This document shows, piece after piece, positions 3,601 through 29,831 of a stretch of 64,000 nucleotides of DNA (position 1 is the stretch's first letter; every line of letters starts with the position of its first letter). Origin of the DNA: Prorocentrum cordatum. Its lineage: Eukaryota. The notes below the pieces were generated by a model, which was not told the DNA's origin, did not search any database, and saw only the letters and a list, made by a program, of their open reading frames with translations. The DNA lies in the NCBI GenBank assembly GCA_963575745.1, contig CAUYUJ010000041.1, positions 1-64,000 on the forward strand, written 5' to 3'. Position numbers and translations under genes: made by a program.

Positions 3601-6600
3601 CTGCGCGGCCTATCCACCCGGACGTCCGACGCCGTGATCTGTTTTGGGCCATGCTTTTTCGCCCCGCTTTCTCCGCCGCTCTGCTCGGTCCAGGCCGAAC
3701 GAAAAGGGGGGGACAGGGAAAGGGGGGGGGGTACGAAATCTGCTGCATGCAGCTAGTTTTGGCCCCGCCGCCGGGTCCATTCCTCGTTACATGGGCGCCT
3801 CCCGGCGCCGGGAGGCGCCGGGAAAATCAGCTATACTTGGATGGCCGCGGCGGCTGCTAGGTGGTTAGCGCGGATACTAAGGGGTTAGAGGATTTAGTAT
3901 GTACGTACAAGTGAGTTGTAAGTAGGTTATAAGTGTTGTAAGTCGGATGTAAGTTGTATAACCAGCTACAACTGGTTAGTAGGAGATACTAACCACTTTT
4001 AGCTGGAGGCTAACCTTGCTAAGTCTCTAGTAGAGGTTAGCTCGCTAAGTCCCCATTCTAGCTACCACTTACTAACCATTTAGTAACCACTTAGCTGCCA
4101 CTTAGTAACCACCCAGTAACCACTTACTAACCACTTAGTAACCACATAGTAAGTCCGCTAGCTAGCTTACTTACTAAGTGGTTAGCGGACTTACTAAGTG
4201 GTTAGCGGACTCTGAGAAGGAGAAGGAGGAGGAAGAGGAGGAGGAGGAGGAGGAGGAAGAGGAGGGGGAGAGAGGAGGAGGAGGAGAAGGAGGATGAGGA
4301 GGAGGAGAAGGAGGAGGAGATGTCGAGGAGGAGGAGGAGTAGGAGGAGGACGGGGAGGAGGATGAGGAGGAGGAGGAAAGGGGGAGGCGGCGGCGGAGGC
4401 GGCGACGGGCGCGCCTCAGCCCAAGACGGCCGCTCGACGCGGCGGCCCTGCAGGGCCGCCGCGTCGAGCGGCAGCCTGGCGCGGCTGAGCGCGGCGCAGG
4501 CGAAGTTCGCCTGCGCCGCGCTCTGCGCCGCCATCTCCAGCGGCATTGCCGCTGGCGCGGGCGGCGGGGGGGCCCCGCGCGCCGCTCGGCAGCCAGAGCG
4601 GCCCACCGCACGTAGCCGTCGTCCACAACCCAGAGGGTTGGGGGACGACGACGTGCGACGGGCCGATGGCTGCCGAGCCCGCCCCACCCCTCGGGGATGT
4701 CGAGGAGGATCCCCGACATCCCAGAGGGGTCCTCCGAGAGGAGACTGCCCCATGGCTCGGGGTCGCCATCGAAAAACATGTCTTGATATGTTTTTCGATG
4801 GCGATCCCGAGCCGCGAAGCAAAGGGAAAAGGGAGGGCGCGCTCCCCGCGCGGCCTGTAAGCCGCACGCGCGCGGGCGGCGTCTCCTCCTCCCCCCTCCT
4901 TCTATCCTCCTCCTCCTCCTCCTCCTCCCTCTCCTCCTCCTCCTCCTCCTCCTCCTCCTCCTCCTCCTCCTCCTCCTCCTCCTCCTCCTCCTCTCCGCCT
5001 CCTCCTCTCGCCCTCCTCCTCTCGTCATCATCATATACTCCTCCCTCGTCCTCCTCCTCCTCATCCTCCTCCTCGTCCTCCTAACCCTCCGCTCCTCCCT
5101 CGTCCTCCTCCTCCCCTCATCCCCTCCTCCTCCTCCTCCTCCTCCTCCTCCTCCTACTCCTCCCTAGCTCCTCTCTCTCTCCTCTCTCCTCTCCTCCTCC
5201 TCCTCCTCCTCTCCTCCTCCTCCTCCTCCTTCCTCCTCCTCTCCTACGTCCTCCTCCTCCTCCTCCCCCCCCCCCCCTCCTCCTCCCCATCCTCCTCTCG
5301 CTCTGAGCTATCTCGTCGTTTTCCTCCTCCTCATGCTCCTCCTCCTCCTCCTCCTCCTCCTCCTCCTCCTCCTCCTCCTCCCCCTCCCCCTCCTCCACCC
5401 TCCCCCCCTCGTCAGAGGAGAGGGGGAGAGGAGAAGGGGGGGGGGGAGCAAGATGAGGAGGAGGAGCAGCCGTAGGAGCAGGAGGAGGAGGGGGAGAAGG
5501 GGGAGGATGCGGGGAAGGAGGAGTTTGAACGACCGCACCACTGATCAACGACATTAGCGCTGCAGCGCAAGAGGACGAGGAGGAACGAGGCGGAGGAGAG
5601 GAATCGGCGACCATGCACTGTTCAGGTGCTGCAGCACCGAAGTGTCAATGAAAAAGGTGCGCTACAGCGCAATGCAGAAGGAATCCACGTTTTCAAGGCG
5701 GAGAAGAGGAGTCGTCGACCATGCAACGTTCAGGTGCTGCAGCACCGAAGCATTTAGCAATGTAAAAAAAGTGCGCTGCAGCGCCAGTAAGGAATCCACG
5801 TTTTAGGCTAAAGCGCACCACCGCGGCTGCGACCATATCGGGCGCGCCACTCGGATGCCGCCGCCCTCGCGCGGCGCCCACGCGAGCGAGCACACGATGC
5901 TCGCCGTGTGCGCCCAAAAGGCGTCGGCATCGCCGCCAAGCACGTGCGCGGAGGCGCGCGGGTGCAGCTTCTCCTTGAAGAAGTAGGGCAGGACCAAGTT
6001 CAAGCCATAGTAGTGGCCGTTCTTGGTGAAGGAGAGGTGTTTCAACACCTCGGCCGCAATGTGTTCCCCTCCTCCGTCCTCCAACAGCACGACGTCGCCG
6101 TATTTGACGTCGTGGCAGCGGCACCGCGCTGCAGCGGACGTAACAAAGTCCGCAGGCCCGAACTGCTGCAGCAGTTCGCGCGAGATGGCCTTGGACGGCC
6201 TGGTGGCGTTAACCAGGCAGTTAACCTTAAAGGTGTCGCCATCCATGAGCTGCCACAGGTGCCGCTCGGTGACGCTCTTCAGGACATTGGCGCCCCAGCC
6301 GCTGGAGGCTGCAGCCCCCACCTGAAGAGCGTTCGCAAAGCGCTTGCTGGTCTTGTGCTTGCGCCCCAAAACCCAGCGCGACGGCAGCGCCACATGGCCC
6401 CAACGCCTCACGTAGTTGGCGAAGTGGTGCAGGTAATGGAACTTCTGCGCCATCGTTTCCTTGCCAAAGACGCTGCTGTATGACAGCAAAAACATGTTAA
6501 CCGCAGCCTGCAGCTTATCCGCGTCTGCCTGACGCCTGGATACTCGTAGGATTTCTTCCACAACGATCGTGTGCGCCTCGAACACTGCGCAAGCAGATCG

Positions 6601-7702
6601 GACTGCAGGCGCTGCAGCGTCGCTAGCCACCTCCCTGAAGAAACGCGTCAATCCGCCCGCGCGAACGCATGTCCGAACAAGAGGGGTGCAGTACATATCC
6701 TACAGAGATTCACGCGCGCTGCAGCGCATGTATTATTGGTCTGGCGGGGGCGCGAAGCATGCAATGATACTTGCATGGTTGTGAGCCCCTCGCTGGCGGT
6801 GCACTTGAAATGCTTGCTGTCAACGTGGGACCTCACGCGCTTCTCGCCGAAGATCGCGCACGTGTCGGGGGAGATGGAGTGGCACCCTGGAAACGACCAG
6901 TCCTGGAAATATGCGCCTGCGCGCGCCCAGTAACCCTTCAACCTTCGAAACATTTGGAACACCAGAATGTTATATGTACCGTTGACGAAAATACAATGCA
7001 TCCAATCAAACATGACTGTCTCGAGCGGCTTGAGTTTCCGAACCCGCCCAGGCAAATGGGGGCCCCAGTTCCAGCCAAGTCGGCGCTCCAACTCCTGGAA
7101 CCCGCCCTTGTTCATGATGTTGACCCCTTCGATCAATCCGTTGCAGATGGCATCGAGCAACGGCGCCGTCATCGGCTGCAGCCGCGACGCATCTGGTTCC
7201 GAGTGGTGAACAGCGACACCCGTCGCATCAGAAGCAACTATATCCCGAACTTCGCCCTTCAAGAACACGTTGCGGCACATAAAACATGGTTTGATTCCTG
7301 ACAAACCTTTCATTCCGATCAAGCGGTGTATTGCATCCTCGTCCGCGATCCGACAGAGCCGCTGCAGCGACGCAAGAAGGCGTAATGTATATATATATAC
7401 ATGTGCACATGTATGCTAACTAATCTTGGGTGCTATGCGGCGACCGCTGCAGCGGCTGAATGTAAATTCCGAGGTCCATCTGGATGAGCTCCGTCGCGCC
7501 GTCGGGGCGCAGCCGCAAGCTGATGCCTGCGCTGAAGTTGTGCCCCTGATCAGGCCAGAACTGCGCGAGGATTGCGTCCGGTAGCATCGTCAGTCCGCGC
7601 GGCTGGATGTCGTTCGCGGTCTTGGCCCGCATCGTCGCGAGCTGGAACCACGCATCCTGCGAACAAATCGCAGCACAACTGGCGCTGCAGCGCCTCTCTC
7701 TC

Positions 7703-7770
<68 letters not shown>

Positions 7771-10700
7771 CCCCCCTCCCCCCCCCCCGCATATATCGTT
7801 GCTGCAGCAACGCTATCGCGAAAGTCCTCCGACGAAAGCGCCTGCGGGCCGAATTCCGCGATCGCCCAGTAGATGCCCCAGGACTTGCGGTTCTGCACGT
7901 GCGCCAGCGCGTTGCCAGCGCCTATTTCATCGCCGTAAATAATGATGTGCCACGGGCGTGGCAGCTCCAGCGCCCGCTGCCACAGAGGCTGCATCGCGGG
8001 GAGGGCGCTGCAATACCACAGCATTGCTGCTGGACTGCAGATCTCCACCGTGTGCTGCCCGACTACCATGTTCTGGTGGAGCTTGCCGTACGGCGTGTTC
8101 TCACCGACCATGAGCTCCCGAGCGTCTCTGATATCCTGGCGTCGGGATCCCAATTCGGGGGCTCCGTCTCGCTTAACGGACGCCAGGAATTGCGCCATCG
8201 CATTACAATGCATGAATGGCAGTTCCGCGCGAAGGCGGGACAGCCGCCGCAGCTTCGCTGGGCGGTCGTCCTCTGCCGCCATCGCGCGCGTTCCCGAGGC
8301 AAGCTTGCCTCCGTCGCTGCGCGCGCGCGGAGGGCCCCCTCCGCTAGGGGCCACGGCGACTACGGATGGAAATGAGGCTGCACCGCGTGGAGAGCAACCA
8401 AATGCGCGCTGCAGCGCTAACTGCCAAGCAACAGTCTGGGAGCACATGGCGCTACAGCGCCGCTAACGTCCAATGATGACAATCTGACGCGCTGCAGCGC
8501 GAACGTCCTCCTCCTCCTCCATCCTGCTCGCCATCCCCCTCGTCCTCCTCCTCTTCCTCTCCCTCCTATACCTCCTCCTCCTCCTCTTCCTCCTCCTCCT
8601 CCTCCTCCGCCTCATGCGCCCCCTCATCCTCCCCATCCTCCTCCTCAACCTACCCATCCTCCTCATCATCCGTCTCCCGTCCCTTCATCCTCCCCGTCAC
8701 CATCACCTTCATCGTCAACAGCATCAATATCACTCGCCCTCATCATCCGCCACGTCGCTATCCAACGAGAAACTGCAAGCGAAACTGCGCTGCAGCGCAA
8801 CACATTAACACATCATGATCCGCGCGCAAACTTTCAACCGTGGTCCACGGAGAAGCGCTGCAGCGCAACTCAAACAACACGCTCAACCACGTTCCCCCCA
8901 GCCTTTACCAATCAATCGAACCAGCATGCTTCAGCAGGCGGTCGCCGAGGCCGACCTCACTCAGGTCACCTTCATCTTCTTGGCGTTCCGCAGCGAGGTC
9001 AACGCCTCGTTGAGTTTCTGGATGGCCACGACCGAAGCGGCGATGTCCATCTGACCCCGACCCTGCTACTCATACTCCTCATCCTCCCACATCATCGCCT
9101 TCCACCTCCTCCTGATCATCCCCCCTGTCGTCCTTCTCCCCCGCTGCAGTGGGGGAGTAGCCTGCCACACTCATGAACCCCACCGTCCTCCTTCTCATCC
9201 GCCTCCTCATCCACCTGCAGCTCCGCGGTGCGGATCTGCACCTGCTTCTCCGCTTTCCTGGCGTTCTTCCGCGCCTCCTTTACCTCTGCTGTAGCAGTCG
9301 CCGTCGCTCTCGCGCGGGCCTCGCGCAACTCGTCGCGACGGTCGGCGCGCGCTTGCGCTTCGAACGGCTTGTCGCAGCGGCGCGCCGCCATTGCGATCCC
9401 AGTGAGGAGGCGGAGGAGGTCCGTTGCCAGCACCCGCTGCAGCGAACGATGGCGACTGCGACGCGCGAGCCAAGTGAGGAGGAGGAGGAGGAGGGGGAGG
9501 AGGGCATGCCATCGGCAACGCGCAACATGAGCGAATCACAGCGCTGCAGCGCGTGACTTGGCAACAACCATGCGGGAGACAACGCTCGACATCGCGAATG
9601 ATGGCGCCGCGGCGCGTATCGACGAGGAACGACTGGCACTCAAGACGAGCACGTCACGCAATACATGGACACCGCGGCTGCAACTGCACACTCACAAACG
9701 CGCCAACGCTACAACGGCACCACAAGTCTGACAGGCGCTGCAGCGCTGCATCGGAACACAACAGCGCGCAATATCGACGCCACCATCCAGGAAAGCGAGC
9801 GCTGCAGCGCTGCATCGTGATCATGATGGCGATGCAAACGTTGACCACAAAGGCGCCAGCGCTGCAGCGCCCGCATCCACGAGAACCCGTCAACATATTT
9901 GACTTTCATCCTCCTCGTCGTCCGTGCGAGCCGCGCGACCGCCAGGCAAGACCATCGCCACTACCGTTCATATCACCGGCCAGCGTTCCATCCAACCTCG
10001 CACTGATCCTCACCATCCTCCTCATTCCTTCTCCTCCGCATGCTCATCCTCCTCATCATCCTACCCATCCTCCTCCTCGCCCTCATAATCCTCATCCTCA
10101 CCTCCATATGCCGACAGTGCCCGTTGCGCGCTCACGGCTTGCCGCGACGGCCAGTGAAGTTCGGGTCGCGGCACGTGCCGCAGCCATTCGGCAGGTAGCG
10201 GCATTTGCTGCACCCGAGTGCCATTTGGCCCCGTTTGGCTGCCGCCTTGCCCTGGGGCTTGGCCTTGGCCTTGGCTTTGGCCTTCCCTTTGCCCTTGGCC
10301 TTCGGTTTGGCCGTGCCCTTGGCCGCCGTCTTGCCCTTGCCAGCGCCTGTCTTGCTCTTGCCCTTGATCGCGCTCTTGCCCTTGCCCTTCTTGCCCTTGC
10401 CCTTGCCCTTGCCCTTGCGAGGCAGCTCGCCCTTCGCGCTGCCCGCAGCCAAGGTCTCGATCGCCTGCAGCACAGCATCCTCGTCTCCGTCTGCTGCTGC
10501 AGCAGCATCTTCGATTGGCGGCGTTGGCGCTGCTGCAGCAGCATCTGGCGCCGCCGCTGGCAATGCTGGCCCAGCTGGCGAATCACCAATCGCGGGGGGA
10601 CTCGCGGGGGGGCTCGCCGTGGGCGCCGCAGGGCGGCGCGGGAAGAGCTGCAGCTGCAGCTCGTTGGGCGGCGATGGCGGCGGCGCAAACGCTGCCAGCA

Positions 10701-12343
10701 TTTGCTGCATCACGGCCATCGCGTCCATGGGTTGCATTGGCGCTGCAGGCGGCACGGAGGGTGACCCCGATGGCGTCCATGGCACAATGGCAGTGCTCGG
10801 CTGATGCGGTGGGGCGGCAGCCCGCAAGCCCTTGTTGGTCAGCCTGAGAGGCACGCGGGCCTTGATGGCGTTGAGACCCGCAGGCCGCTTCAGCGGCGCA
10901 CGCGCAGCATGAAACCTATCATGCTCTATGCGAGGTGGACCTAAAGGACCGAGCTCACCGAAGCACCCAAGACATCCAGAACAATCAGCGCTGCAGCGCA
11001 TGACGGGGCGGCAGCAGCCTCGTAGATGCGATACCACGTTGGCGAGGTCGCGCGTCACATCGATCGGCGGGTCCGCATCGGCGTACGCCGCGTCGAAGAT
11101 GTACTGAGGGAGCTGCCGGGGATCTGCTGGGAAATTCCAAGTCACTGTCGCCGCTTGCCCCGTCGCGCCCCTGCGGCTCGCCAAGAACTGACCCTGTAAA
11201 GGGCGACTCGTCGGGGAACCCTAACGCTGACGCGCCGCATCGCATTGGCTGCAGTCAGTGCGATGTGATGCGTCTGCGTTAGGCGTCCCCGCCGAATCCC
11301 AAACCTTCATCTCCGCCACGATCCCGTAGAGCTGCCCAGGGTTTGCGTCTGGAAGATGGGCGCATGCCATCAACGCCGCCAACTCTTTCAGCGTGTTCTC
11401 GCTCGGAACCGTCAAGCCGATGGCACCGCAACGTTTGATCAACGCGCGCACCTTCGCGACGATGCTCTGGCTGGGGTCGCGAAATAAACCCCACTCCTGC
11501 ATGGTAAAGTCCACCAGCCTACGCATCGACGCAGGCATGCTGCAGCATGCTAACATACGTACATTTGAAAAATGAACATGGTAACATACATAAAGTACAG
11601 AACAAACAATTAAACCATACATGTGAATAACACTTCGGCGGTCCGATGTGCAAAGCACGATGGATAGCACCGCCCTGACGCGAGCGTCTGCACGCGCAGC
11701 TGGAGCGTGGGCGTCGCCGTGCCCACGCGCGCGGCCAGCGCGGCGCTGAGGCGCGCCTTGTGGCTGTCCGCGAAGCCCGACGCGGTGATTCGATTCTGCA
11801 GGGTAGCTGCTTGGGCAGCCCCGATCGTCCCCAAGTTGTGAAGCTGCAGCTGCACGCTCATGGACAAGGCGGACTGGCTCTGCGCCATCGCGTCGGCGGC
11901 GATGACGCCGATCTGCGATGCGAAGAAGGCGTCGCAGCTGCCCAGGTTATCCAGGATGTGGTTGATGGGTGTGGCCGCAGCCGCGGCAGACATGATGCCC
12001 TCCGCGAGGGCGAGGGGGTGCGCGGACGCTCCGAGGGGAAGCGCGAGGGAGGGCCCCCCACACTGCGAGAGCTGAAGCCACCAGGAAGCGCAGGTGATAA
12101 TAGAGGCCCACAACAGTACAGAATGCTCTGCAGCGCAACAACGAATCGCGTTCCAAATTTAAAGGAAACACCCGTGAGCGCCTGCAGCGCTCAGCAGCAT
12201 CCATCGTCGCAAAGTAACATGAGCGCTGCAGCGCTAAATGCATGGCGCCATGATGGAAAACGCATGTAGTGGGCAAATAGTGGGAGATATATAAAGTGAT
12301 GGAAGGGTAGAGGGAGATAATTAGTGAACACGGGGGGGGGGGT

Positions 12344-12430
<87 letters not shown>

Positions 12431-15400
12431 GGGGGGGGGGGGGGGGGAGGGGGGGGGGGGGGGGGGGGGTGGGGGGGGGCGGGGGGAGATGCGAGGAGAC
12501 ACGGGGGGGAAGGACACGAGCGCGGGCGGGCGGGCGGGCAGGGCACGGGGGGGGGATGCATGATCATGCGAGGAACACGGAAGGGGCGGTGCGAAAGACA
12601 CGGAGGGGTGGGAGGGACATGGGGGAAACACGGGGGGCACGGAAGAGACACGGGAGGGGCACGGGAGTTCGGGGGCGAGCGGGCGGACGGACGCGGGAGC
12701 GGTGCGGAGGGACACGGGCGGGAGCGCACGGAAGGCATGTGGAGACACGGAAGGGGCACGGGAGAGACGCGGGAGAGACACGGGAGACGGATAGGTATAC
12801 ACGGGAGCTCGGGAGCGGGCGGGCGGGCAGACACAGGAGGGACACGGAAGGTGTCCGAGGAGGGCGCGGGACGTATTCAGGAGATGCGCGAAGTGTGATC
12901 AGGAGCAAATACCGAAGCGATCTGGGAGCCTCGAAGGCAGCTGGGACATCGACAGAGGCGTGTCTGTTCAATAGAGGGGGCTATTGAACAGACACGGGCG
13001 TGGCTGTTCAATAGAGGGGGCTATTGAACATGGCATGTTCAATAGAGGGGGCTATTGAACAGACACGGGCGTGGCTGTTCAATAGAGGGGGATATTGAAC
13101 AGACACGCCGCTGTCAGACAGCATCACCTCTGCAGAGGGGCACCGACGCTCTCAGATCGCTTCACCCGGAGCTCCCGTTCGACCTCAGATCAGCCATCCT
13201 GATGCCAACATCCAGCACTCCAGCCCACCCCAACGCCCACCCACGCAGTCCCAGAACACTGTCCACACTGCTGATTACGAGGTGGGAGTGAAACTAAGAG
13301 AGGCGCGAAGTACATCACGCGGCGCTGCTGCAGCAGCGTCGCGACGAGGTTGACGATGCCGACACCGCTGTCAACTGCAAAGATTTACGCTCACGGCTCT
13401 GCTGCAGCAGCGTCGCGATGGCTCGAGACTGCTGAGGACAAGGCCGATGGGAGCTGGCGAGGCTGCCAGGAGGCCATGGGGGGAGCTACTCGGCGGCGCA
13501 ACGAACTGTGCTGAAGGGGAGCAGGGAGAGTGGCGAAGGGCGATGCGATGCGAGACTGTTTGCCATCTGAAGTGCCCCAGGACCCCCCCAAGTGCCCCCA
13601 AACTTTCCTGGCCAATCCAAGGCCGACCCCTGGCACATCAGTCCATGCAAAAAAATGTCAGCGGATCAGGATGTGAACGTCGACGATGGCAGATAGATGT
13701 GATGAGGATATCGGAGCGCCTTTCTGGGCGACAGCGCGGGCGCACCACGCGATCTGGCGCACGAAATATAACCTGGCCTAAACACATGCATGCGCCGGCG
13801 TCAGCTATGCTCGCGAACTGATCCAGTCCACCCCCCCATTGCTCCCATTGATCTTACATGTTGGGTTGCTACAGCATGTATCCTATCACTATGCGTTCGT
13901 TGTCCCCCTCGCTCACGGGAGAGTGGATACCCGCTGCAGCGGGCATCCTGTCTACCGTCTCTCTCCAATGTGTCTTCACTCCACCCCCACGCTGCGTCTC
14001 CATCGCCCCCCTCGCATTCCCTATGTATATCACGTCTCCCCCCTGTCTACCTCTACTATAGTCCCCCCTCTCCCCCTGTCTACCTCTACTGAGTTACCGT
14101 CCCATTCCGTCGCCCATGTAGTGAAATGCTCCGCGGCGGCCCCCCATGCTCCGCGGTGGCGCGCCGCGGCTCTCATGTGGGCGCTGCAGCGCCAAGGCGC
14201 TCGGCGGCGCCTCCGCCCTCGGCGCCCTGCAGGGGCCGCTCGGCGGCCGCCTCCGCCCTCGGCGCTCGGCGGCGCGCACTCGGCGCTCGGCGGCCGCCTC
14301 CGCCCTCGGCGCTCGGCGCGGCCGCCTCCGCCCTCGGCGCCCGGCGCGCCCTCGGCGCTCGGCGGCCGCCTCCGCCTCCGCCCCCGCGGCCTCACCCGCG
14401 GCCTCCTCCCTCCTCATGAGGCGCCCCTCGGCGCCTGCGCCTCCTCGGCGGCCCCCTCGCCGCCAGCGCCGACCCAGACCTCTGCTGGGCCAGCGTAGTA
14501 CTCCTCGGCCAGGGCGGCGGCGTCGGCGCACTCGCCCGCCAGCAGCAGCTCGCAGAGCTGCTGCGCCCTGTTGAACCAGCCGCCCCGCCGCCCTTGCCCT
14601 TGCCCTTGCCCTTGGACAAGCTTGCCCTTGCCGCCCTTGCTCTTGTCCTTGCCCTTGCCCTTGCAAGGTGGGCCGCCGCCGTCCTTGTCCTTGTCCTTGC
14701 CCTTGCCCTTTCTGCAAGGTGGGCCGCCGACGTTGTCCTTGTCCTTGTCCTTGCCCTTGCCCTTGCCCTTGCCCTTGCAAGGTGGGCCGTCGCTGCCATG
14801 CGGGGCGGCGCGCGACGTCGGCCGCGGCCGCGCCTTGGCGGCAGCGAGCAGCGCGCCTGGTGGCGGCACCGCAGGCGGCGTCGGCCGCATGCGGCCGACG
14901 CCGCCGTCGTCGTCCTGCAGGACGTCCTGCAGCACGTCGAACTCCTCGATGTCCTCGTCGTAGTCGAGCGACGCCATCGCTGCAGCGAGGCTGCAGTTCG
15001 CCAAGCTGCATGATGGGCTTGGTTTCCACCACCAGTACCATAAGTTGGAGGGAGAGGTCCTCCTCCTCTTCTTTCTCCTCCTCCTCCTTCTCCAACATAT
15101 GGTATAGTGGTGGTGGAAACCAGTCCCATCACTGCAGCTGAAGCTGCACTCGGGCGCGCGGGCGCGCGACGCTGCAGCGCGCGAAGCTGCAGCTGCAGCT
15201 GCACGGAACAAAAACAGCGGCGGTGCCAACGACGAATACGATGGCGACGACGCTGACGACGACGGACCCCTGCTAACCAATCGACTGACCCCCCAAAGTA
15301 ACATCACCCCGCAAAGTAACTTCACCCCCAACTGAACCTCCGAAGGCCAACGACTGGATTGACCTCCCCAGGGCTGCCCCCTCAGGATAGGAGGAGGAGG

Positions 15401-18400
15401 GGGAGGAGGATGAGGGGGAGGAGGAGGATTGGAGGGAGAGGAGGAGGGGGGGGAGGAGGGGGGGCAGGAGAAGGAGGAGGAGGAGGAGGACACTGATGAG
15501 GAGGAGAAGAAGGAGAGGGAGGAGGAGGAGAAGGAGGAGGAGAAGGAGGAGTAGGAGAATGAGAGGGAGGATGAGGAGGAGGAGGAGGAGGAGGAGGAGG
15601 AGGAGGAGGAGGAGGAGAGGGAGTATGCGGAGGCAGGAATAGGCAGAAGGATCGGGGGGGCGGGGCACGGGTGCCAACTGGTTGTCTTCCTCCCCCTCCT
15701 CCTCGTCATACTCCTCGTCCTCGGCCTCCTTCTCCTCCTCCTCCTCCTCCTCCTCATCATCATCATCATCCTGCCCCCCCTTCCCCTGCTCCGAGGTGCT
15801 GGCAGCGAGCGGTGGGAACCTGTGAAAATGAGGGCGTTCCAGAACGTCGTCCTCAATGTCGTCGTCCTCCTGATCACCCTCCTCCTCCTCATCATCATCC
15901 TCCCTCCACCTTCTTCTCCTGCATGCGCTGCTCTCAATTACGTCGTCTTTAACGCCGTCGTCGTTGTCTCTGTCGCCGTCGCCGCCGTCGCGATGCTGTA
16001 TCCGACTGAAACAGTGGTGCTGCAGCACTGACCGCGCGCGCGCCGCGCGCCCGTCACTTCCGCGGCTTCTTCGCGACGTGGTATTGGACTGCCAGCGCAA
16101 CCGCTGTCTCGCGGTCCCCGCGCTGAAGCGCTTCCCGAATCATGTCGCACACAAGCTTCCACATGCCAACCTTGGTCTCAGCATCGCGATTGCGCGCGGC
16201 TGCAGCCGCGCGCGGGGCTGGCACATCACTGGCGGCTGCAGCCGCGGTCCTCGTCGACGTCGGAGGCGGCGGTGGCGGCGGCGGCGGCGGAGGTGGGGGA
16301 GTAGCCGCATATGTCGCATCCGATGCAGCGGACTTCGCCTTCGGCGGCGGCACTGGCTCCGAGGGAAGCCGCCATGGCGGCGTCGCTGCGCTCATGTTGG
16401 CAGCCATTGATGTTCTGATCACAGGTGGCTGCGAACCACATGCAATAACAGAAAGCGAACATGCGGGCTGCAAGCGCGATCGAAGCGCTACATCAACACG
16501 CCAGACACACAACATGTAAGTCAGCGCTGCAGCGCGACGCAAAAATCTGATATCGGCACGCCAGACACCCGAACGTAAATCAGCGCTGCAGCACGATGGA
16601 CCCCAAACACACGAAACGCAAGTCAGCGCTGCAGCGCCGTGAGGTCACACACCGACGGCGGCAACGCGTGAGAGGCACACTTGATCGTAGTGTCGTCGTG
16701 CTGCAGCACGCTTGAGCATACCAACGATTCGCAATGACACCAACAGTAGCGAACATTGGGGGGATCCACCAACAATCCGCAATTATTATCCCAATCCTCC
16801 TCTTCCTTCTCCTCCTCGCCCTCGTCCTCGTGCTCGTCCTCCTCGCTGCCATTCTCAATCGCACTGCCGACCGTGATCGCACGCCCCAGCGATGCGGTCG
16901 ACCGAGCGCGCCGCAGCTCAGTCCGAGTCGGCCTCCTCCTCCTCCGCATCGCCCTCCGCCTCCGCTTCCATCTCCTGGAGCTCATCCGCTTCGCAATCCT
17001 TGAGTTCGGCGGTGCACCACTTCGCCGCGGCCGCTTCAGCGTCATCCTTGCTGCAGCCGCGGTTTGTGCGGAACAAGGCCGTCCTGCTGCAACCGCAGTC
17101 TGTGCGGACGGCCCGCCAAGCTTGGAGCCGCTGCACCCAATAGATGCGGGCGCCGCAAGGAACGTCGGTCTCGTGGCGCCGCGGGCGCTTCAGCACCGTG
17201 CTCGCCTCTGCCGCCTCCGCCGCCTCCTGAAGCAATTTGGCCTTGATGTACTCTACGCCCTTCTCGTGCAGCACCACCTGCAGCTTGTCCCTCCCCCCCT
17301 ATGAGGTGGGGGAATGACAATCTGCAGCTCTGTTGCCTCCGTATCGCCAAACGGCGGCAGCTGCGCTGTCTTGAAGCACTTGTCCACTGGAACCTGGCGA
17401 CTGGCGCGGCCGGACCGCGTGGTCGGGCGGCGGCCTGGCTCCGCTGCAGCGAAGAGCGTCGTCGGCGCCGTTGGCCCCGACGACGCGGTGCGCTGATTTT
17501 TCAGCCACGTTAGGAACATCGTGCCTCGCAAGCCCTGAGCCTTGCCGCACACCCACTTGCTCCAACCTGCGGTGGTCACGGTGATACACTCGCGGTCTCC
17601 GATGACCTCGACGGCCGCGACCAGCTCGCGCCCCGTACGGTTGTCGTGCAACACGACGCAGTCGCGCTTGATCGTCGTCATCGCGCGCGCGGCGCGCCGA
17701 GGCTGCAGCCCGAGCGCGGTCGCACTTCAGCGCCAAAATTGCTGCGATGGAGTGATGAGGCAACATGTGCGCGGACGAGGTGCTCATGATGAGGTGCGCT
17801 GCAGCGCATGTGAAAGATGAAGCGAAGAGCAACGATCACATCGAGCACAACAGTGATGACGAAGCCGCTGCAGCGGCATGTCTGTGGGAAAGGCTGATGT
17901 CAGCACCAATATTGTACAGTCGCTGCAGCGACGATGCTGGCGCAACGAATCGTTCCGCGCGCTGCAGCGCCGCGGCAAGTATCGCACTTCGCACCAACCC
18001 GCACACTGTTTACACCAATCGGAGGGCCACGCTCGGTGCCGTCATGTGCGCTCGCCGCTCCTTAAGCCCCCTCATCCTCCTCCCTATGCCAAACCTTACC
18101 CTGCCTCCTCCTCCTCCTCCGCATCACCCCTCCCTCCTGCCTCATCCTCCCGCGTGGTCCCTCTATATCGCCAGCTCAGGCCGTCCTGAGCTTCTTGGCT
18201 GGCCGCGGCTGCAGCCGCGGCCACGGCTTCACCACCAGGAAGTCGCCCGCGGACAGGGCGCAAGTGTTATGCATCTGGGGCACCCCCACCTGCACCTTGT
18301 TGACGCCTGTCCCGAACGTCACGGTCTCCTTTCGGAGCTCCATGTTGGGCTCTGAGTCGGACTTTGCCACCACCCAGAAGGGGCTGACAAAGGCGTCGGG

Positions 18401-21400
18401 GCCCCGCGACCCCTCAGCGGGGGGCCCTGCGAACTGCGGGCCCACGAAGAACTCGTAGAGGCCAACCTTCCCCAACGAGATGCTCTCCGCAACGCAGCCC
18501 GTGCTGACCCGCGTGGACGAGGCTGAAATGCGACCACTCCCACCGCGTGGAGCTACATGGCGCGCAGTCGGTAACATCACTGACCTCGTCGCTACGGCCT
18601 GACGTGCCCCGAAATCCTCGCTACCTCGTGCTCAGCGCAGCGCTGCAGCGCGGCGTCGTCGGAGGGGGGCGCGGACGATTGCGGAAGCACAAGTCTGACG
18701 AGCTCACCCACTTTGAACGCTCGCTTGCAGCGCACGGCAGGTGGGTCCTGCAGGATCTCCAAGTGCAAAATGTTCGCCTGGTACTTCAGCGCTTGGAGCC
18801 GCAGCGCCATGTTGCATGCCCCCTTGAACGCGTCCATCGCCCAACCCTCGTGGGCTGGCGGCAAGTGCTCCTTCGTGAACGGCAACTGCTCCTGCACCCT
18901 GGACGTCAACTTGTAATTCTCGAGCAATATGTTTACTTCAATCCGCCCGCTCGGCTAACTGCTCCGTGCGCTGCAGCGCATCGACCAACCCATTGCAACT
19001 TAAGTACAGGAAATACAATATCGCAGTTACTACCTCCTCCTCCCCCCTCCCTGCTCCCCACGGGCGGCGGGGTGGCTGCGGCCGCGCAATGGAGATCTCT
19101 TCGCCCACCAGGTCGCCGTGCAACTTCTTCTGAGCGGTGATCCCATTCTCCGAGATGGAGAGCACCTCGAAGACGTCATCCACCTCCTTCTTCTGGACGA
19201 TGTGCTTCCCCACGTCGAACCCTGCACGCCGCATGCGGAAGACGTTGCTCTTCAACTCAGCGGCCGACGACGCTGCCGCGCGCGGCGCGTCTGCATCGGC
19301 GCTCGCTGGGAACTCGGGTGCGCCATCGCCTTGCTTGTCGGTCTGCACCGCCTTGCCGAACTCGATCCCCAAGCTCTTCATCTGCAGCTGGGCTGGCTCC
19401 CCGAGCTCATGGAGGAAGACCTCTCTGGAGGGTCGCTGCAGCGACATTGAATGGCGAAAAGCAGGGAGGGAGGGAAACAAGGAGCACACGAAAGGTGGCG
19501 TGAGAAGATACCTGTGCTATATCTGCTACGCATCCGAAAGTGCGGTCTCCTGGCGCTCGCTTCTTCACCAGGTACATGGCACAGCGGACATCCAACTTTG
19601 TGATGTGCAAGAAGCCCTGCTCCGCTCCGATATCCAACCTCTTCACGAGCGACCTTGCGTCGGCCATGAGGTTGTCGGCCGCAGCCACGTCCGCCTTGCG
19701 GGACGCGACGTGGACGATCTCGTTTGCCTTGATCCGCCCATCGCTTCAGCGATTGCGTTTGGGAATAAAGCAATGTAACGGTGCGTGTGTGTGTGTGGGG
19801 AGGGGGGAGGGGTGGGTACGCAGTTCTAACAATGCAGCGCAATGCATAGATGCGCTGCAGCGCATGTCACTACAAGGGGGCGCCGACAAGCTTATGGATG
19901 GTCCTGCACATGCTATCCACCACGTGCTCGCCTGAATAGTTGGCCTTCACGAGCGCCGCTACGACATACGGGTACGACTCCTGGTGCTTCCCCCATTTAA
20001 TCGAATTCAACTTGCGCCAAATTCAGAGCCGCACATCAAAGTTTGCCCCGAGACGTCCACATTCGTGAAGGTCTTGAGGGCTTCATCTATTTCACGGAGA
20101 AGTTCTCCGTTTTGTGGCCCGAGCTCAACAAACTTGCACAAGTCAGCGATCCACGCCTTGCAAGGTGGGTTCGCGTGGCCCGCTTGCTCGGCGATGTCGC
20201 GCCAATCGGGCTTGCTGGAACCCTCAGCGAGGCTGTGTGCCAAGAGCATCCGCCCACCTGCCTGCAGCAAGCGCCGAGCCGATCAAGTGCTGCAGCACTG
20301 TAAGATATAATGCTCCTGCTCCTCGTTCTCACCTCCTCCCCAACGCGCTCCCACTCATCACCCTCCTCGTGCATCATCCTGGTCCTTACTACATACCGCT
20401 ATATACTATAGTGGGGATAGGCTGCAGCCTGACCGAATGATCTCGGTCTCGTGAACCGCCTCCCTGACGTCGGCGTTCAAAGCCCTCTGCACGAAGTTCT
20501 TGAGGCCCTTCACTTTGGCCACCGCGTGCTTGATGATCAACCACGTCAGGCCCTTTTTGACTGCCGTCGCAAGTTGCGGATGCAACGCGCACAGCTTTTC
20601 GGAGTCGATGTTGTCCCGAGAGTCTGCCAGCGCCTTCACTGTGGTCGGCGCCTTGGCCAGCACGCAGCGGAGGAAGACGTTCGTGTGGGAGCCGCCCACT
20701 GACGTATACCGCAATGAGTCCAGCGGGGGGCACCGACCCCCGCTGAGCCGCGAAAGGCGGTCGTTCGCCATCGCGGTCTCTTCCAACTGCGCCCCCTGCG
20801 GGGCCTCGAAGGCAGTGGCTGCAGCCGTCTTGGCCAAGACGAAGCCCTGGGCGCAAATCTTCGCGCCTAAATTGTGAGCCCGCGCAGGGTTCACTAACGA
20901 ACCGCTGCGGTTCCGAATGTCGATGCCCATCTGGTTCGGTGGGACCTGCTGGTAATACGCTAGCCCCTCCGCCAGCAGGAACTCCTTCAGTTGATCCCAC
21001 CCCGATGCCAACCTCCCCGAGGAATTGCTTTCCTCGATGTACTGCAAGATCTGCTCCTCCTGACGCGCCTGCAGCGCCATGCCAGCGCTATATATAGCGC
21101 CGAATGCAACGTGCGAGCCCGCGGGCGCGACGGCGGATGCGGCGCGCGGCCGCAGCTTGAGACAAGCTGTCGCGCGGCGTGCGCGGGAACATCGACTTGC
21201 ATGGACATGCAATTTGCGAGCAAACATGTTGATCTGGGCTGCAGCCCGAGGCCCATGAAGCACGAGCGCGCACGCGCTGCAGCGCGATGCGACATCACGA
21301 CGACAACCATTTTTTTGCGCTGCAGCGCAAAGTAACATACGTGCTATCAAATTTGGAGCGCTGCTGCGCTCAATGCGACCATTGAAAAACAACGAATACA

Positions 21401-24400
21401 ACAAAACAGAATTGACATGTGCATTCAAATTCCTTGCAAACGGAGCTGGGCGAAAATGAAGATCCGAACAACGTGCGACTAGAAAACATGCATTTAACTC
21501 AACATTCAGCGCTGCAGCGCTTCATCTTCAGCGCACGCAGCGCTTCATGTTCATATAAATCCGAAGGCAGCGCTGCAGCGCTTCTCATATTTAAAGCAAA
21601 AATCCAGGACACCGACTCCAAATCAAAATGCAAAATTTGTAGCGCTGCAGCGCTCAACGAACAAACTCAGCTCTTTCAAGACGTGGATTTACCTTTTTTC
21701 CCTGTGCATGGCCCTTGGATAACAAGTGCAATGTAACCGCTAAGTCACTTATAACCTACTTAGCAAACTAGCTATAAGCGGTTATAAGTGGTTAGCTAAG
21801 TGCGCTAAGCACTTAGCTAACTGGTTATAAGTGGATAGCTAAGTACTTACTAAGTCATTACTAAGTGGGCCACTTAGTAATGACTGAGTAAGTACTTAGC
21901 TAAGTCCGCTAACTACTTACTAAGTACTTAACTTAGCGTAGTAAGTATGTTAAGTACTTAGCAACCGCCGCGGCCATCCAAGTACGCGAGCTGATTCTCA
22001 AACCCCCCCTTTGCTATCCCCCCCTTTCGCCCCGCCCGACCGGTGTCTCGCCTTCCCTTTTTTCGCCTCCTTGGGCCTGCCGGGAGGCCTTCCTCGCCAC
22101 GGGCTGGGCTCGCCTCGAGATGCTGGTCAGAACGCGCCCTGGAGAGAGGCCTCGCGAGCAGTGGTATGTGTACCTTTTGTTTTTGTTCCCCACTGGGGGT
22201 CCTGGCCCCCTCCCTGGAAGAATGCCCATCGGAGGGGCACCAAGCGTACACCGCCACCAGCCCTGGCCAGGTCCATCCTGGGCCCTTGACTGGCTCCTTG
22301 CCTAGGCCAGAAAGGCCTGTACACCAAGTCCGGGTCCCGCGAGATCGGCCTGGCCAGGGCTGGTGGCGGTGTATTGTTTGGAGCTCTCCTGGCCCAGACA
22401 GGCGACGTGTTTTTCTTTCAATGCGCTGCCCCCGGAAGTCTCGACTGCTCCTCCTTATCCTCCTCCTCCTCCTCCTCCTCCTCCTCCTCCTCCTCCTTTT
22501 CTTCTCTTTCCTCCTCCTCCTCCGCGTTCCTCCTCCTCCTCCTCCTCCTCCTCCTCCTCCTTCTCCACGTTCCTCCTCCTGTTCCTCCTCTCCCCCCTCC
22601 TCCTCCTCCTCTTCCTCCTCCTCCTCCTCCTCCTCTTCCTCCTCCTCCTCCTCTCCCCAGGCACGACTTTCCATCCGGAGTCGTACTTACTTCGGCGGTC
22701 CCGGGGCCCGTCGCGACGCGAGCCCGGGGCCCCAGGGCCCTCACAGATCGATGCGGCTGAGGTCGGGCTTAGGGGGATGTTGGGCGAAAATTTAAGCACC
22801 CACACATACCCCAGAACATTCAAAAACATGTATTGGAAAAGTGCCCCCAGGCTATTTTTCCCAACCGTCCTGTGGTGTTGGGTCCTCGTTTTGAAGAGAC
22901 GTCGCCCCGCGGTCCTTCCTCCTCCTCCTCCTCCTTCCTCCTCCTCCCCTTCCTCCCCCCTCCTCCCCCTCCCACACCCATTCTGGCACACCCCTCACAC
23001 GCTTCGTGGCCCCATGGGGAGCTCCACCGAAGGCCCCAGTGGCTGCGCCCGCATGCGGTTCCACCCACCGTTCTGGCACACCCCTCACACGTTTCGTGGC
23101 CTCATAGGGAGCTCCACCGAAGGCCCCAGTGGCTGCGCCCGCATGCGGTTCCACCCCCCATTCTGGCACACCCCTCACACGTTTCGTGGCCCCATAGGGA
23201 GCTCCACCGAAGGCCCCAGTGGCTGCGCCCGCATGCGGTTCCACCCCCCATTTCTGGCACACCCCTCACACGCTTCGTGGGTGGCTCCATGGGGAGCTCC
23301 ACCGAACGCCCCAGTGGCTGCGCTCGCATGTGGTTCCCCCCCCCCATTTCGGCACACCCCTCACACGGTTCGTGGCCCCATAGAGAGCTCCACCGAAGGC
23401 CCCAGTGGCTGCGCTCGCATGCGGTTCCACCCCCTTTTTCGGCACGCCCTTCACACGTCTCGTGGCCCCATAGGGAGCTCCACCGAACGCCGCAGTGGCT
23501 GCGCTCGCATGCGGTTCCACCCCCCATTTCGGCACACCCCTCACACGTTTCGTGGCTCCATAGGGAGCTCCACCGAAGGCCCCAGTGGCTGCGCTGGCAT
23601 GCGGTTCCACACCCCATTCTGGCACACCCCTCGCACGTTTCGTGGCCCCATAGGGGGCTCCACCAAAGGTCCCAGTGGCACTGCCCGCTTGCGTCCGCCA
23701 CCACCCAGCACAGCCCTTGTTCCCTGCGCTTCACCCACCCAGAACAGCGCTTCGTAGCCCTATAGGGAGCTCCACCAAAGGTCCCAGCGGCACCGCCCGC
23801 ATGCGTCCGCCACCACCCTGCGCAGCCCTTGCTCCCTGCCTGCGTTTCACCCACCCAGTACAGCGTTTCGTGGCCCCATAGGGAGCTCCACCGAAGGTCC
23901 CAGTGGCACCGCTCGCATGCGTCCGCCACCACGCAGCACAGCCCTTGCTGACCGCGTCTCACCCACCCAGTACAGCGTTTCGTGGCCCCATAGGGAGCTC
24001 CACCGAAGGTCCCAGTGGCACCGCCCGCATGCGTCCGCCACCACCCAGCACAATTGCGGCATTCACAACTGCATATGGTTGGGTCCTTCGCCAGGCTAAT
24101 TTCAAACTATTTGTGAATATTCCTCATGTAGAGGGACAGGCCCGACTTAAGCTGCGGCTCGAACCTGGCAAAGACTGGCGCCGCCCCTTGCGCCCTCCGC
24201 ACGCCAGGACGGGCGTTCAAGAGATCCGCGCGGAGCCCCGAAGGTTTTTGGTTTGTGCAGCCTTTTCTCGTCGGTTCCCAGGGACCGAGCTTCTCATCCT
24301 GAGCAGCGTGTGGGCCACCACGGTGCGCGTGGGCTGGCCCCCGGAGAGTCTCGAGTGGCTCAAACAGCCCCCCGTGGCGATTTCCCACGACGCGGGAAGT

Positions 24401-28708: not shown

Positions 28709-28741
<33 letters not shown>

Positions 28742-28917
28742 TCATAATTCATGCTAATGCTATTATTATTACTACACCGGCTACTACAAACACCTACTCA
28801 GCGGCTAGAATCTTATTACTACTACTACTACTACTACGGCTACTACGACTCCTACTGCCATTTCTTCTTCTACTATATTTATTGCTCTACTATCACGTGT
28901 AGTACTGCTACTATTGT

Positions 28918-28967
<50 letters not shown>

Positions 28968-29794
28968 GGCTATTACTAGTAGTACTACTACAACTACTGC
29001 TGTCTCTGCTTCGTTTACTAGTACGAGGAGCCAACTCGCATTACGAGTATTACTAATGTAATTACTATTAGTAACTATTAGTATTAAGACCACTACTACG
29101 ACCACTACTATTATTACTGCAACTACGGTTCGTACTGAAATTCCACGACTACGGCAAGCACTGCAACTACGATTCGTACTACTACTATTTCTACTACCAC
29201 TACTACTTACGACTACTATAACTACTGCTACTACTACTTCCACTACTACTCCCACTACTACTATTATTACTACTACTACTACTACTACTACTACCAGTAA
29301 TACTCTAGACTACTGCTACCAAGCAGTATTACTAACAACAGATCCTCTTTTTTGCAACATAGTCATCCCACGTGTGGCAGGGCTATAGCACATTCTGTAT
29401 ACGTACAGCCTCAACCGCTACTACTCCTACTACTAAAACCAGTTCTAGTACGACTACTACTGCTACTACTGCTGCTACTACTGCTACTGCTGCTACTACT
29501 GCTACTAGCATTTCTACTCCTACTAAAACTAGTGCTGCTACGATTACGATTCTTCGTACTACCACCGCCACCACCACCACTACTACCACTACGGCTCCGA
29601 CCGCGACTACTACTAGTACTTCTACCCTATCACTACTGTTGTTCTTGCTGCAACTGCCACTACTACTATTACTACTACTACTACCACCATCTCGACTGCT
29701 ACTACTGCTGCAACTGCTACTACTACTACTACTACTACGACTACTACCCCTATCACTACTACCATTAGCGTTAGTACTAGTACTACGACTGTCA

Positions 29795-29831
<37 letters not shown>

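What the first reader, a model, noticed from the sequence alone, without database searches (positions are those of the whole stretch)
3834..21984. 18-kb cargo-carrying TIR transposon with exactly definable ends, sitting in a host intron
Seen: 26-bp TIRs, mirrored AT-rich subterminal arrays, and flanks that rejoin into a MITE whose intact copy lies 900 bp upstream. Inside, about seven genes all lie on the minus strand (antisense to the host SPPL gene), with the transposase last among them. Established: CMC/EnSpm elements typically carry a transposase plus one or a few accessory genes. Inference: this is a giant element whose cargo (ParB-like/SET-like, AP2-like, basic Cys-finger and KG-rich proteins) looks like a self-contained DNA-binding/chromatin toolkit. 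I do not recognise this architecture from a described family.
Basis: partly seen in the sequence, partly recalled or inferred. Interest (0 to 1): 0.9.

Follow-up and report, generated by a model that had tools for sequence, protein, structure and literature searches.

The report
Large RAG1-fold multi-gene DNA transposon
An 18-kb cut-and-paste transposon in a GC-rich marine eukaryote carries an unannotated RAG1-shaped transposase, a ParB-like protein and a palindrome that is found only inside the element.

Summary
The structural observation holds. Positions 3834-21984 are bounded by 25/26-identical inverted ends with AT-rich subterminal repeat arrays. Removing the block rejoins a MITE whose intact copy lies about 900 bp upstream.

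The last gene on the minus strand is a real transposase. It has 861 homologues and no Pfam match. The model of a 691-aa homologue is closest to the RAG1 core (Z 14.9) and ends in a BAH domain. The family carries the D, D, C(2)C, H(3)H, E signature of the published CMCT clade. The window's own copy has G at the catalytic E column, so it may be inactive.

The first gene (21080-18179) belongs to a small unnamed family with a ParB/Noc/KorB-like N-domain (Z 6-7.3). The AP2-like reading is a weak lead. The SET-like and Cys-finger readings are untested or unsupported.

One feature is new here. The palindrome CGCTGCAGCG occurs 39 times inside the element and 0 times in the other 46 kb, and it clusters upstream of the genes.

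"In an SPPL intron" is not supported. The verified SPPL exons lie at 50.4-57.9 kb.

No other copy could be fetched, so the TSD (TA or none) and whether the cargo is conserved remain open.

Verdict: a new variant of a known kind.

The parts
3834..3859 (+). Left terminal inverted repeat. It may begin at 3836 if the TA at 3834-3835 is a target duplication.
   Evidence: 20/20 then 25/26 identical to the reverse complement of the right end; chance control.
21959..21984 (-). Right terminal inverted repeat. It may end at 21982 if the TA at 21983-21984 is a target duplication.
3860..4211 (.). Left AT-rich subterminal repeat array (units ACCACTTAGTA and ACTTACTAAGTGGTTAGCGG). Probable transposase or accessory-protein binding sites (inferred).
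   Evidence: GC 43%; TRF arrays 4064-4152 and 4169-4211; hexamer enrichment.
21700..21958 (.). Right AT-rich subterminal repeat array with the same ACTTAG/CTAAGT words.
   Evidence: GC 39%; 13 of the window's 23 hexamers; TRF 21804-21868.
5806..8282 (-). Transposase gene. Homology blocks are about 8282-7842, 7680-7471, 7400-6678 and 6651-5806. It has a RAG1-fold DDE core and a C-terminal BAH-like domain. This copy has G at the catalytic E column and R at a conserved C.
   Evidence: tblastn; 861 homologues; model and fold searches; motifs.
18179..21080 (-). Gene 1, with at least 6 exon blocks. It has a ParB/Noc/KorB-like N-terminal domain and a conserved S-x-GG-x-HTN-x-F-x-R motif. The fold of its C-terminal half is unknown.
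   Evidence: Family of 10 clusters; collinear tblastn blocks; alignment; fold searches.
16921..17681 (-). Candidate gene 3 (ORF-level), with a possible AP2-like C-terminal exon at 17298-16921.
   Evidence: ORFs; atlas lead 0.85 to a cluster in which 15% of members carry AP2; no Pfam or PDB match.
16057..16407 (-). Candidate gene 4 (ORF-level), proline-rich with a short helical C-terminus.
   Evidence: no family.
14417..14977 (-). Candidate gene 5 (ORF-level), a KG-rich basic protein.
   Evidence: no family; not similar to gene 4.
10135..11526 (-). Candidate gene 6 (ORF-level; it may start at 11993). It has a KG/KA-rich basic tract and ends in a C-x2-C...C-x2-C motif.
   Evidence: no family.
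9119..9391 (-). Possible short coiled-coil ORF (weakest candidate).
5558..21652 (.). Field of 39 copies of the palindrome CGCTGCAGCG (27 as GCGCTGCAGCGC). They cluster within 600 bp upstream of gene starts and also occur in introns.
   Evidence: 39 inside against 0 outside; 0.23 expected; positions relative to starts; 34 of 39 lie outside coding candidates.
3693..3833 (+). Left part of the interrupted target MITE.
21985..22045 (+). Right part of the interrupted target MITE.
2843..3030 (+). Intact paralogous MITE copy, used as the empty-site reference.

Best explanation
Positions 3834-21984 are one insertion of a large cut-and-paste (class II, TIR) DNA transposon into a MITE.

Its transposase belongs to a widespread but unannotated family of the CMCT group (CACTA/EnSpm-Mirage-Chapaev-Transib and allies). 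The family has an RNase-H-type DDE core with a C(2)C/H(3)H zinc module arranged as in RAG1, followed by a BAH domain.

Inferred mechanism: transposase, possibly with an accessory protein, binds the 26-bp ends and the subterminal ACTTAG-type repeats, excises the element, and reinserts it at a TA. The BAH domain tethers the enzyme to nucleosomes.

The element also carries a ParB/KorB-like protein and four to five further small, mostly basic proteins. All lie on one strand. The noncoding DNA is studded with one palindrome, GCGCTGCAGCGC, concentrated upstream of each gene. This most likely acts as an element-specific cis-regulatory or binding site.

This particular copy has glycine at the catalytic glutamate position. 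It is therefore probably not autonomous and would need transposase from a sister copy.

Shown: the ends, the target restoration, the transposase family, fold and motifs, the gene 1 family and its N-domain fold, and the palindrome distribution. Inferred: all binding roles, the TSD, and the activity of the element.
For: - Ends and target.
- Transposase family size: 861 homologues at E<=1e-3 and 159 at E<=1e-10 among 1.84 billion representatives.
- Model of the 691-aa homologue P0013: pLDDT 94.8.
- Foldseek: 47 matches at E<=1e-3, led by the RAG1 core (1.6e-9), then BbRAGL and HzTransib.
- VIA-align: RAG1 4wwx_E Z 14.9 (438 aligned, rmsd 5.5), BbRAGL 13.8, HzTransib 8.9, P element 8.7, Hermes 7.4.
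- Residues 562-690 match BAH domains: ZMET2 Z 10.0 and DNMT1 BAH1 Z 9.7.
- Motif conservation in a 50-sequence alignment that I selected for length: D124 50/50, D225 49/49, C244 and C247 49/49, H495 44/46, H499 43/45, E517 41/43.
- This is the signature that Kojima 2025 gives for CMCT (PMC12730594, passages read).
- The BAH region is covered in 35 of those 50 sequences, including the window's close relative P0003.
- A sister copy exists. P0003 and P0001 are 85-97% identical and have E at the catalytic column.
- Gene 1.
- Palindrome: 39 inside against 0 outside, 0.23 expected. There are 12 sites in the transposase region and 27 in the cargo region.
- Upstream clusters of 5, 4, 2, 2, 5 and 4 sites before six gene starts.
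Against: - Only one copy was seen. No genome is held and no other copy lies in the window, so mobility as an 18-kb unit and conservation of the cargo are not shown.
- The termini are not 5'-CA..TG-3', which Kojima 2025 reports for most CMCT lineages.
- The TSD is ambiguous. The most parsimonious rejoining needs no duplication at all.
- The window's transposase has G for the catalytic E and R for a conserved C.
- Canonical GT/GC-AG splice sites could not be placed for every transposase intron by eye, so the intactness of the reading frame is unproven.
- Four to five 'genes' have no homologue or family support.
- The ParB-like match is Z 6-7.3, below the tool's own caution line of 8.
Confidence: 0.8

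Rival explanations
1. Composite or 'pack'-type structure. The two ends and the transposase gene belong to a smaller element, and the 9-22 kb block of other genes is captured host DNA or an unrelated nested insertion.
For: Only the transposase and gene 1 have homologues. The 12.2-14.1 kb stretch holds a 155-nt poly-G run and hairpin-like tandem repeats that could mark a nested insertion. No second copy was available for comparison.
Against: The same palindrome is spread through both the transposase region (12 sites, 5558-8856) and the cargo region (27 sites, 9435-21643). It is absent from 46 kb of flanking host DNA. All candidates share one strand. Gene 1 abuts the right subterminal array, with 5 palindromes between them. 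No internal TIR pair or similarity to the rest of the window was found.
Confidence: 0.12
2. An integrated virus-like or episome-like element that uses a transposase for integration. It would have a virus-style promoter motif upstream of every gene and a ParB-like partition protein.
For: Clusters of one motif lie upstream of six gene starts. The ParB/KorB-like domain is typical of plasmids and phages. The atlas neighbours of the gene 3 exon include a Nucleocytoviricota cluster at a sub-threshold score of 0.85.
Against: - No capsid, polymerase or packaging gene was found: no Pfam or PHROGs hit in 46+52 ORFs or 16 proteins.
- No relative of the transposase was found in viral contigs.
- No viral contig holds paired palindromes.
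- BFVD gave no match at E<=1e-3 for gene 1.
- The genes contain introns, and the GC content equals that of the host flanks.
Confidence: 0.05
3. A dead relic. The structure is a former transposon with no remaining function, and the palindrome is a mutational or repeat by-product.
For: G sits at the catalytic E column and R at a conserved C. Microsatellites lie inside the element and its introns.
Against: The TIRs are 25/26 identical. The long homology blocks have no stops. The palindrome copies are exact 10-mers with unrelated flanks, which decay would blur rather than keep. This rival concerns the state of this copy and is compatible with the main explanation for the family.
Confidence: 0.25

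Closest known systems
CMCT clade of DDE transposons (EnSpm/CACTA, Mirage, Chapaev, Transib, Plavaka, ESTA, Lanisha), as defined by Kojima 2025 (PMC12730594)
   Same: [quoted passage not shown] RAG1-like fold. A short TSD is possible. As in CACTA elements, it has long subterminal repeat arrays and more than one gene.
   Different: No sequence-level match to any Pfam transposase family (0 credible hits in 14 and 50 members) or to PDB sequences. The termini are TACTTGG/CTTGG rather than CA..TG. The transposase carries a C-terminal BAH domain. The element has six to seven genes and a dispersed palindrome.
ESTA (EnSpm-like transposons with TA TSDs; rust fungi)
   Same: The transposase is recognised as RAG1-like only by structure or profile methods. 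It has a TA target duplication, which is possible here. It carries extra genes (TET/JBP in ESTA).
   Different: ESTA consensus termini begin CACCAC (supplementary Table S1). ESTA is found in fungal hosts and carries different cargo. Sequence relatedness could not be tested because the reference sequences may not be entered.
RAG1 / ProtoRAG / Transib
   Same: Best structural match. RAG1 core Z 14.9 over 438 residues, BbRAGL 13.8, HzTransib 8.9. The spacing from the second D to C-x2-C is +19/+22. From memory this equals RAG1's D708 to C727/C730; no call checked it.
   Different: About 10% identity. No CAC heptamer-like termini, no 5-bp TSD, no RAG2-like partner seen, and an added BAH domain.
ParB/Noc/KorB CTP-dependent DNA clamps (for gene 1)
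   Same: N-domain fold: M. xanthus ParB Z 7.3, B. subtilis ParB 7.0, Noc 6.9, PadC 7.0, KorB 6.0. The family's most conserved motif sits in this domain. KorB, like the hypothesis proposed here, acts at palindromes scattered over a mobile replicon (recalled, not from a call).
   Different: Eukaryotic, intron-containing and about 700 aa, with an unrelated C-terminal half. The motif is GG-x-HTN-x-F-x-R rather than the ParB GERRxRA box (recalled). No Pfam ParBc hit. Neither nucleotide binding nor DNA binding was tested.

Membership tests
CMCT clade (Kojima 2025) | Three catalytic acidic residues (DDE) on an RNase-H-like core | tested here: met
   Family: D124 50/50, D225 49/49, E517 41/43; RNase-H transposase folds matched. 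The window's own copy has G at the E column.
CMCT clade (Kojima 2025) | [quoted passage not shown] | tested here: met
   C244-x2-C247 49/49; H495-x3-H499 44/46 and 43/45. Present in the window copy: CFMC and HYLHH.
CMCT clade (Kojima 2025) | TSD of 2-5 bp | tested here: inconclusive
   TA flanks both ends, but the paralogous MITE has only one TA where two are needed. Zero TSD fits without an indel. Only one insertion was available.
CMCT clade (Kojima 2025) | 5'-CA..TG-3' termini ('in most cases') | tested here: not met
   The termini read TACTTGG...CCAAGTA, or CTTGG...CCAAG.
EnSpm/CACTA superfamily | Transposase matches the curated EnSpm-type families; CACTA termini; 3-bp TSD | tested here: not met
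   No Pfam family in 14 homologues, in 50 homologues at E<=5 or in the window's exons. There are no CACTA termini and no 3-bp duplication.
Transib/RAG1 | 5-bp TSD, CAC-type heptamer termini, sequence similarity to the RAG1 core | tested here: not met
   No 5-bp repeat at the flanks. The profile search of PDB sequences found no RAG1 or Transib chain at E<=10. Only the fold is shared.
ESTA lineage | TA TSD with CAC... termini and relatedness to ESTA transposases | tested here: inconclusive
   TA is possible. The termini differ from the ESTA-1 consensus starts seen in Table S1. Sequence comparison could not be run.
BAH domain (transposase C-terminus) | BAH beta-barrel fold | tested here: met
   Model residues 562-690 against ZMET2 (Z 10.0), DNMT1 BAH1 (9.7), TNRC18 (8.9) and ORC1 (8.6). 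The window copy aligns to part of this region. Histone binding was not tested.
ParB/Srx-fold N-terminal domain (gene 1) | ParB N-domain fold with a conserved nucleotide-pocket motif | tested here: inconclusive
   The top rows are all ParB-type at Z 6.0-7.3, and the next unrelated rows are at 4.7-5.8. Foldseek gave nothing at E<=1e-3 and Pfam gave nothing.
AP2 DNA-binding domain (gene 3) | Match to the AP2 family | tested here: inconclusive
   No Pfam hit at E<=1. The atlas score is 0.85 to a cluster in which 15% of members carry AP2, which is below the tool's 0.9 line.
Tc1/mariner (considered because of TA) | Tc1/mariner-type DDE/D transposase | tested here: inconclusive
   No Tc1/mariner structure appears among the listed fold matches, which are led by RAG1. 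There is no Pfam hit. Absence from a list is not exclusion.

The most novel reading that the evidence does not exclude
The element runs its own ParB/KorB-type system. On this reading, the gene 1 protein is a eukaryotic nucleotide-gated DNA clamp. It loads at the 39 GCGCTGCAGCGC palindromes that mark every promoter region and most introns of the element. From there it controls transcription of the element, or marks, compacts or segregates its DNA. Meanwhile the BAH domain of the RAG1-fold transposase reads host chromatin to choose targets. That would be the first ParB-parS-like module described in a eukaryotic transposon. It would also define a new, widespread RAG1-fold transposase lineage in marine protists.
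Probability: 0.12. Interest if true: 0.9.

Novelty: new variant of a known kind. Interest (0 to 1): 0.62.

Why it matters
- RAG1-fold transposases are the stock from which V(D)J recombination arose. A large family of them (861 representative homologues) has no Pfam model and no name in any source I could see. It is fused to a chromatin-reader domain, and it widens the known diversity of this group in marine eukaryotes.
- A multi-gene TIR element with a ParB-like protein and a private palindromic motif offers a tractable case of a transposon that brings its own regulatory or DNA-handling system.
- The motif also gives a simple signature for finding further copies.

Tried and rejected
- No whole genome is held for the window. 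No earlier notes exist by place, sequence or words.
0 of 119 continue the TIR and 0 of 119 give a blastn hit to the element. All are therefore chance hits, and real copies may have been cut off. This used the only metagenome scan.
- The look-up of sequencing runs: 15 rows hold part of the stretch, with shares 0.06-0.58. They are three coded organisms and marine and other metagenomes. No RNA holder is listed.
- The search for related loci: alignment A2 was not conserved enough. The single exon found no relatives in genome contigs or viral contigs.
- Paired palindromes in viral contigs: 0.
- Profile of the transposase family against PDB sequences: only a chance spidroin row at E 2.1.
- Gene 1: atlas, no usable hit. 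Foldseek PDB, none at E<=1e-3. BFVD, none at E<=1e-3.
- PHROGs gave nothing for 16 proteins. PDB sequence searches gave nothing for three cargo exons.
- Genes 4 and 5 are not similar to each other.
- Rfam and tRNA scans of the window found nothing.
- The homologue listing for P0013 has 41 rows. None has a name other than 'hypothetical protein'.
- SPPL N-terminal exons were not found in 46-50.4 kb, even at E<=5.
- Literature: 'transposase + BAH domain + transposon + RAG1' gave 0 papers. 'BAH domain + DDE transposase' gave 0 papers. The haptophyte transposon search gave nothing relevant (listing only).
- Yuan and Wessler 2011 is not held, so the CMC motif definition is taken from Kojima 2025.
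- My guess at the organism (a haptophyte or a dinoflagellate) was not tested and is not used.

Full report
THE OBSERVATION

The window is 60-65% GC, with microsatellites and intron-containing genes, so it is eukaryotic. No genome is held for it.

The ends are as described. 3834-3859 and the reverse complement of 21959-21984 agree at 20 of the first 20 positions and 25 of 26. The 18-nt core with up to 3 mismatches occurs three times in 64 kb: the two ends, plus a 2-mismatch site at 18194. Shuffles expect 0.22, and none of 100 reach three.

Inside each end lies an AT-rich stretch, 43% and 39% GC, built of short repeats (TRF rows). 20 of the window's 23 ACTTAG/CTAAGT hexamers sit in these 0.64 kb.

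The flanks are the two parts of a MITE-like repeat whose intact copy is at about 2843-3030. MITE-specific probes hit only these two places. After removing 3834-21984, the rejoined flanks align over 196 columns at 87.8% identity with 4 gaps. This is a clean insertion.

The target duplication is not settled.
- The sequence reads ...GCTA|TACTTGG...CCAAGTA|CGCG..., while the intact paralogue reads ...GCTACG....
- Taking the whole palindromic TA...TA as the element needs no duplication and no indel.
- A TA duplication with CTTGG...CCAAG ends needs the target copy to have had one more TA than its paralogue.
- DDE enzymes normally duplicate their target, and a related lineage (ESTA) makes TA duplications (PMC12730594). 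I therefore lean to TA, at about 65%. One insertion cannot decide it.

THE TRANSPOSASE

Pfam found nothing credible in 46 minus-strand ORFs of at least 100 aa or 52 plus-strand ORFs.

Read by eye, the minus-strand ORFs between 8.3 and 5.8 kb carry transposase-like motifs. The 255-aa exon 7415-6651 has 861 homologues at E<=1e-3, 159 at E<=1e-10 and 6 at E<=1e-30 among 1.84 billion cluster representatives.

The closest are P0001 (96% identical) and P0003 (a 592-aa gene model, 85-97% identical per block). This shows that a sister copy exists somewhere. tblastn places four collinear blocks at 8282-7842, 7680-7471, about 7400-6678 and 6651-5806. There is only one copy in the window.

None of 14 full-length homologues and none of 50 (17 families each touched by a single member, best E 0.012) matches a Pfam family. 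The family profile finds no PDB sequence. In a listing of 41 relatives, the only name given is 'hypothetical protein'.

I built a 50-sequence alignment, selecting from the 150 listed hits those that looked near full-length. The 691-aa homologue P0013 folds with it at pLDDT 94.8 and pTM 0.92.

Foldseek gives 47 PDB matches at E<=1e-3. The top 40 or so are RAG1 chains (best 1.6e-9, TM 0.44/0.53), followed by amphioxus RAGL and Helicoverpa Transib.

An independent all-against-all alignment gives the following:
- RAG1 core: Z 14.9 (438 residues, rmsd 5.5)
- RAGL: 13.8
- Transib: 8.9
- P element: 8.7
- ISCth4: 8.2
- Hermes: 7.4
- Residues 562-690 match BAH domains: ZMET2 10.0, DNMT1 BAH1 9.7, TNRC18 8.9, ORC1 8.6

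The alignment shows D124 (50/50), D225 (49/49), C244-x2-C247 (49/49), H495-x3-H499 (44/46, 43/45) and E517 (41/43). [quoted passage not shown] By that criterion this family belongs there.

The +19/+22 spacing from the second D to the two cysteines equals what I recall for RAG1. That is memory, not a call.

The BAH region is present in 35 of the 50 aligned sequences, and the rest are shorter at the C-terminus.

The window's own protein keeps D1 (YGDE), D2 (IADED), CFMC and HYLHH. However, it reads VLGRKHK where the family has ERKH, and R where 37 of 43 sequences have C. The sister P0003 has E and C. This copy is therefore probably catalytically dead.

I also could not place canonical GT/GC donors for every intron by eye, so I cannot vouch for the whole frame.

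THE OTHER GENES

Gene 1. The exon 21086-20409 has one longer homologue. That homologue has nine further relatives, all unnamed and without Pfam domains.

tblastn of P0158 gives collinear blocks at 20807-20436, 20210-20019, 19724-19515, 18936-18730 and 18592-18230. This is one gene, 21080 to 18179.

The model of P0154 (13-row alignment) is good for residues 1-435 and poor beyond (mean pLDDT 65).

Its N-domain (about 37-207) matches ParB-type domains first in both VIA searches: PadC 7.0, Pnob8 ParB 6.0 and KorB 6.0, and M. xanthus ParB 7.3, B. subtilis ParB 7.0, Noc 6.9 and KorB 6.0, with the next row at 4.7. These Z values are under the tool's caution line of 8, and Foldseek alone gave nothing. 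I therefore rate the ParB/Srx fold as likely, not proven.

The family's best-conserved motif (S-x-GG-x-HTN-x-F-x-R, with an invariant R) lies in this domain. SETD8 appears only at Z of about 3, in the low-confidence part.

The remaining candidates are ORF-level only:
- 17681-16921
- 16407-16057
- 14977-14417
- 11526-10135
- perhaps 9391-9119

They gave no Pfam hit at E<=1, no PHROGs hit and no PDB sequence hit. The only lead is the atlas neighbour of the 17298-16921 exon. It scores 0.85 to a cluster in which 15% of members carry AP2, which is below the tool's own threshold.

A FEATURE NOT IN THE FINDING

The palindrome CGCTGCAGCG occurs 39 times between 5558 and 21652 and not once in the remaining 46 kb. 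GCGCTGCAGCGC occurs 27 times inside against 0 outside, and GCTGCAGC 67 against 1. Shuffles of the window expect 0.23 copies. The flanks of the copies are unrelated, so this is a bare motif and not a repeat unit.

34 of the 39 copies lie outside the coding candidates. Within 600 bp upstream of the putative starts there are:
- 5 sites before gene 1
- 4 before gene 3
- 2 before gene 4
- 2 before gene 5
- 5 before the 9391 ORF
- 4 before the transposase

Most introns of gene 1 and of the transposase hold one copy.

Two conclusions follow.
- First, the transposase region and the cargo region share a signature that the host flanks lack. This is the best evidence available here that the 18 kb is one unit.
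- Second, the motif looks like a binding site used by the element itself. I think promoter-type regulation is the most likely use. Loading of the ParB/KorB-like protein is the bolder version.

Neither use was tested.

CONTEXT

Peptidase_A22B (signal peptide peptidase) exons are on the plus strand at about 50.4-50.6 kb and 51.6-51.8 kb. The QPALLY motif is at 57.85 kb.

Nothing SPPL-like was found in plus-strand ORFs at 1-3.8 kb, 22-44 kb or 46-50.4 kb. The nearest verified exon is 28 kb from the element. 'In an SPPL intron' is therefore unsupported, though short N-terminal exons could escape this test.

Sequencing runs that hold 38-58% of the sampled words are three coded organisms and marine metagenomes.

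WHAT COULD NOT BE DONE

Cluster look-ups were off. Related-locus scans found nothing.

Reference CMC, ESTA and Lanisha sequences could not be entered, so the position of this family within CMCT is open. The ESTA consensus starts seen in the paper's Table S1 begin CACCAC, unlike this element.

VERDICT

This is a real 18.15-kb TIR transposon. Its transposase is of the RAG1-fold CMCT type, from an unannotated and widespread family that ends in a BAH domain. It also carries a ParB-like accessory gene, several unverified small genes, and a private palindrome.

It is a new variant of a known kind. This copy is probably non-autonomous. Literature searches for a BAH-bearing DDE transposase returned no paper.

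Noticed in passing
window 12332-12486: An uninterrupted run of about 155 G (92% matches by TRF) lies inside the element. On the minus strand it reads as poly-C, or polyproline. Next to it, at 12957-13107, are tandem hairpin-like repeats (unit TGTTCAATAGAGGGGGCTATTGAACA...). This may be a nested insertion or a structural spacer.
   Followed up: no
window 28000-33000: A 5-kb block of much lower GC (45-48%, against about 62% elsewhere) with strong negative GC skew. No Pfam hit in its plus-strand ORFs. Its nature is unknown.
   Followed up: partly
window 49866-49990 and 58060-58178: Two inverted copies of another repeat, with a 20-nt exact core and about 45 nt of near-identity, then similarity with indels. 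They lie 8.2 kb apart and bracket the signal-peptide-peptidase exons. They could be the ends of another element or two MITE copies.
   Followed up: partly
window 50420-50605, 51600-51760, 57851: A signal peptide peptidase (Peptidase_A22B) gene on the plus strand, with exons separated by introns of 1-6 kb. Its N-terminal exons were not located.
   Followed up: partly
window 7694-7769: A (CT)38 microsatellite sits in the first intron of the transposase gene. Long (GAG)n/(CTC)n tracts fill 4214-5523, between the left subterminal array and the 3' end of the transposase.
   Followed up: no
window 2843-3030: The target repeat is itself a MITE of about 190 bp. Its roughly 30-bp inverted ends are rich in G runs (GGGCGAAAGGGGGGGAT...). 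Two copies lie 0.9 kb apart in the same orientation.
   Followed up: partly
window 7842-7680 and 7470-7368: The transposase introns implied by homology do not show obvious GT or GC donors at the positions that keep the frame. One junction would read GA...AG. Either the organism uses non-canonical donors or this copy is damaged.
   Followed up: no
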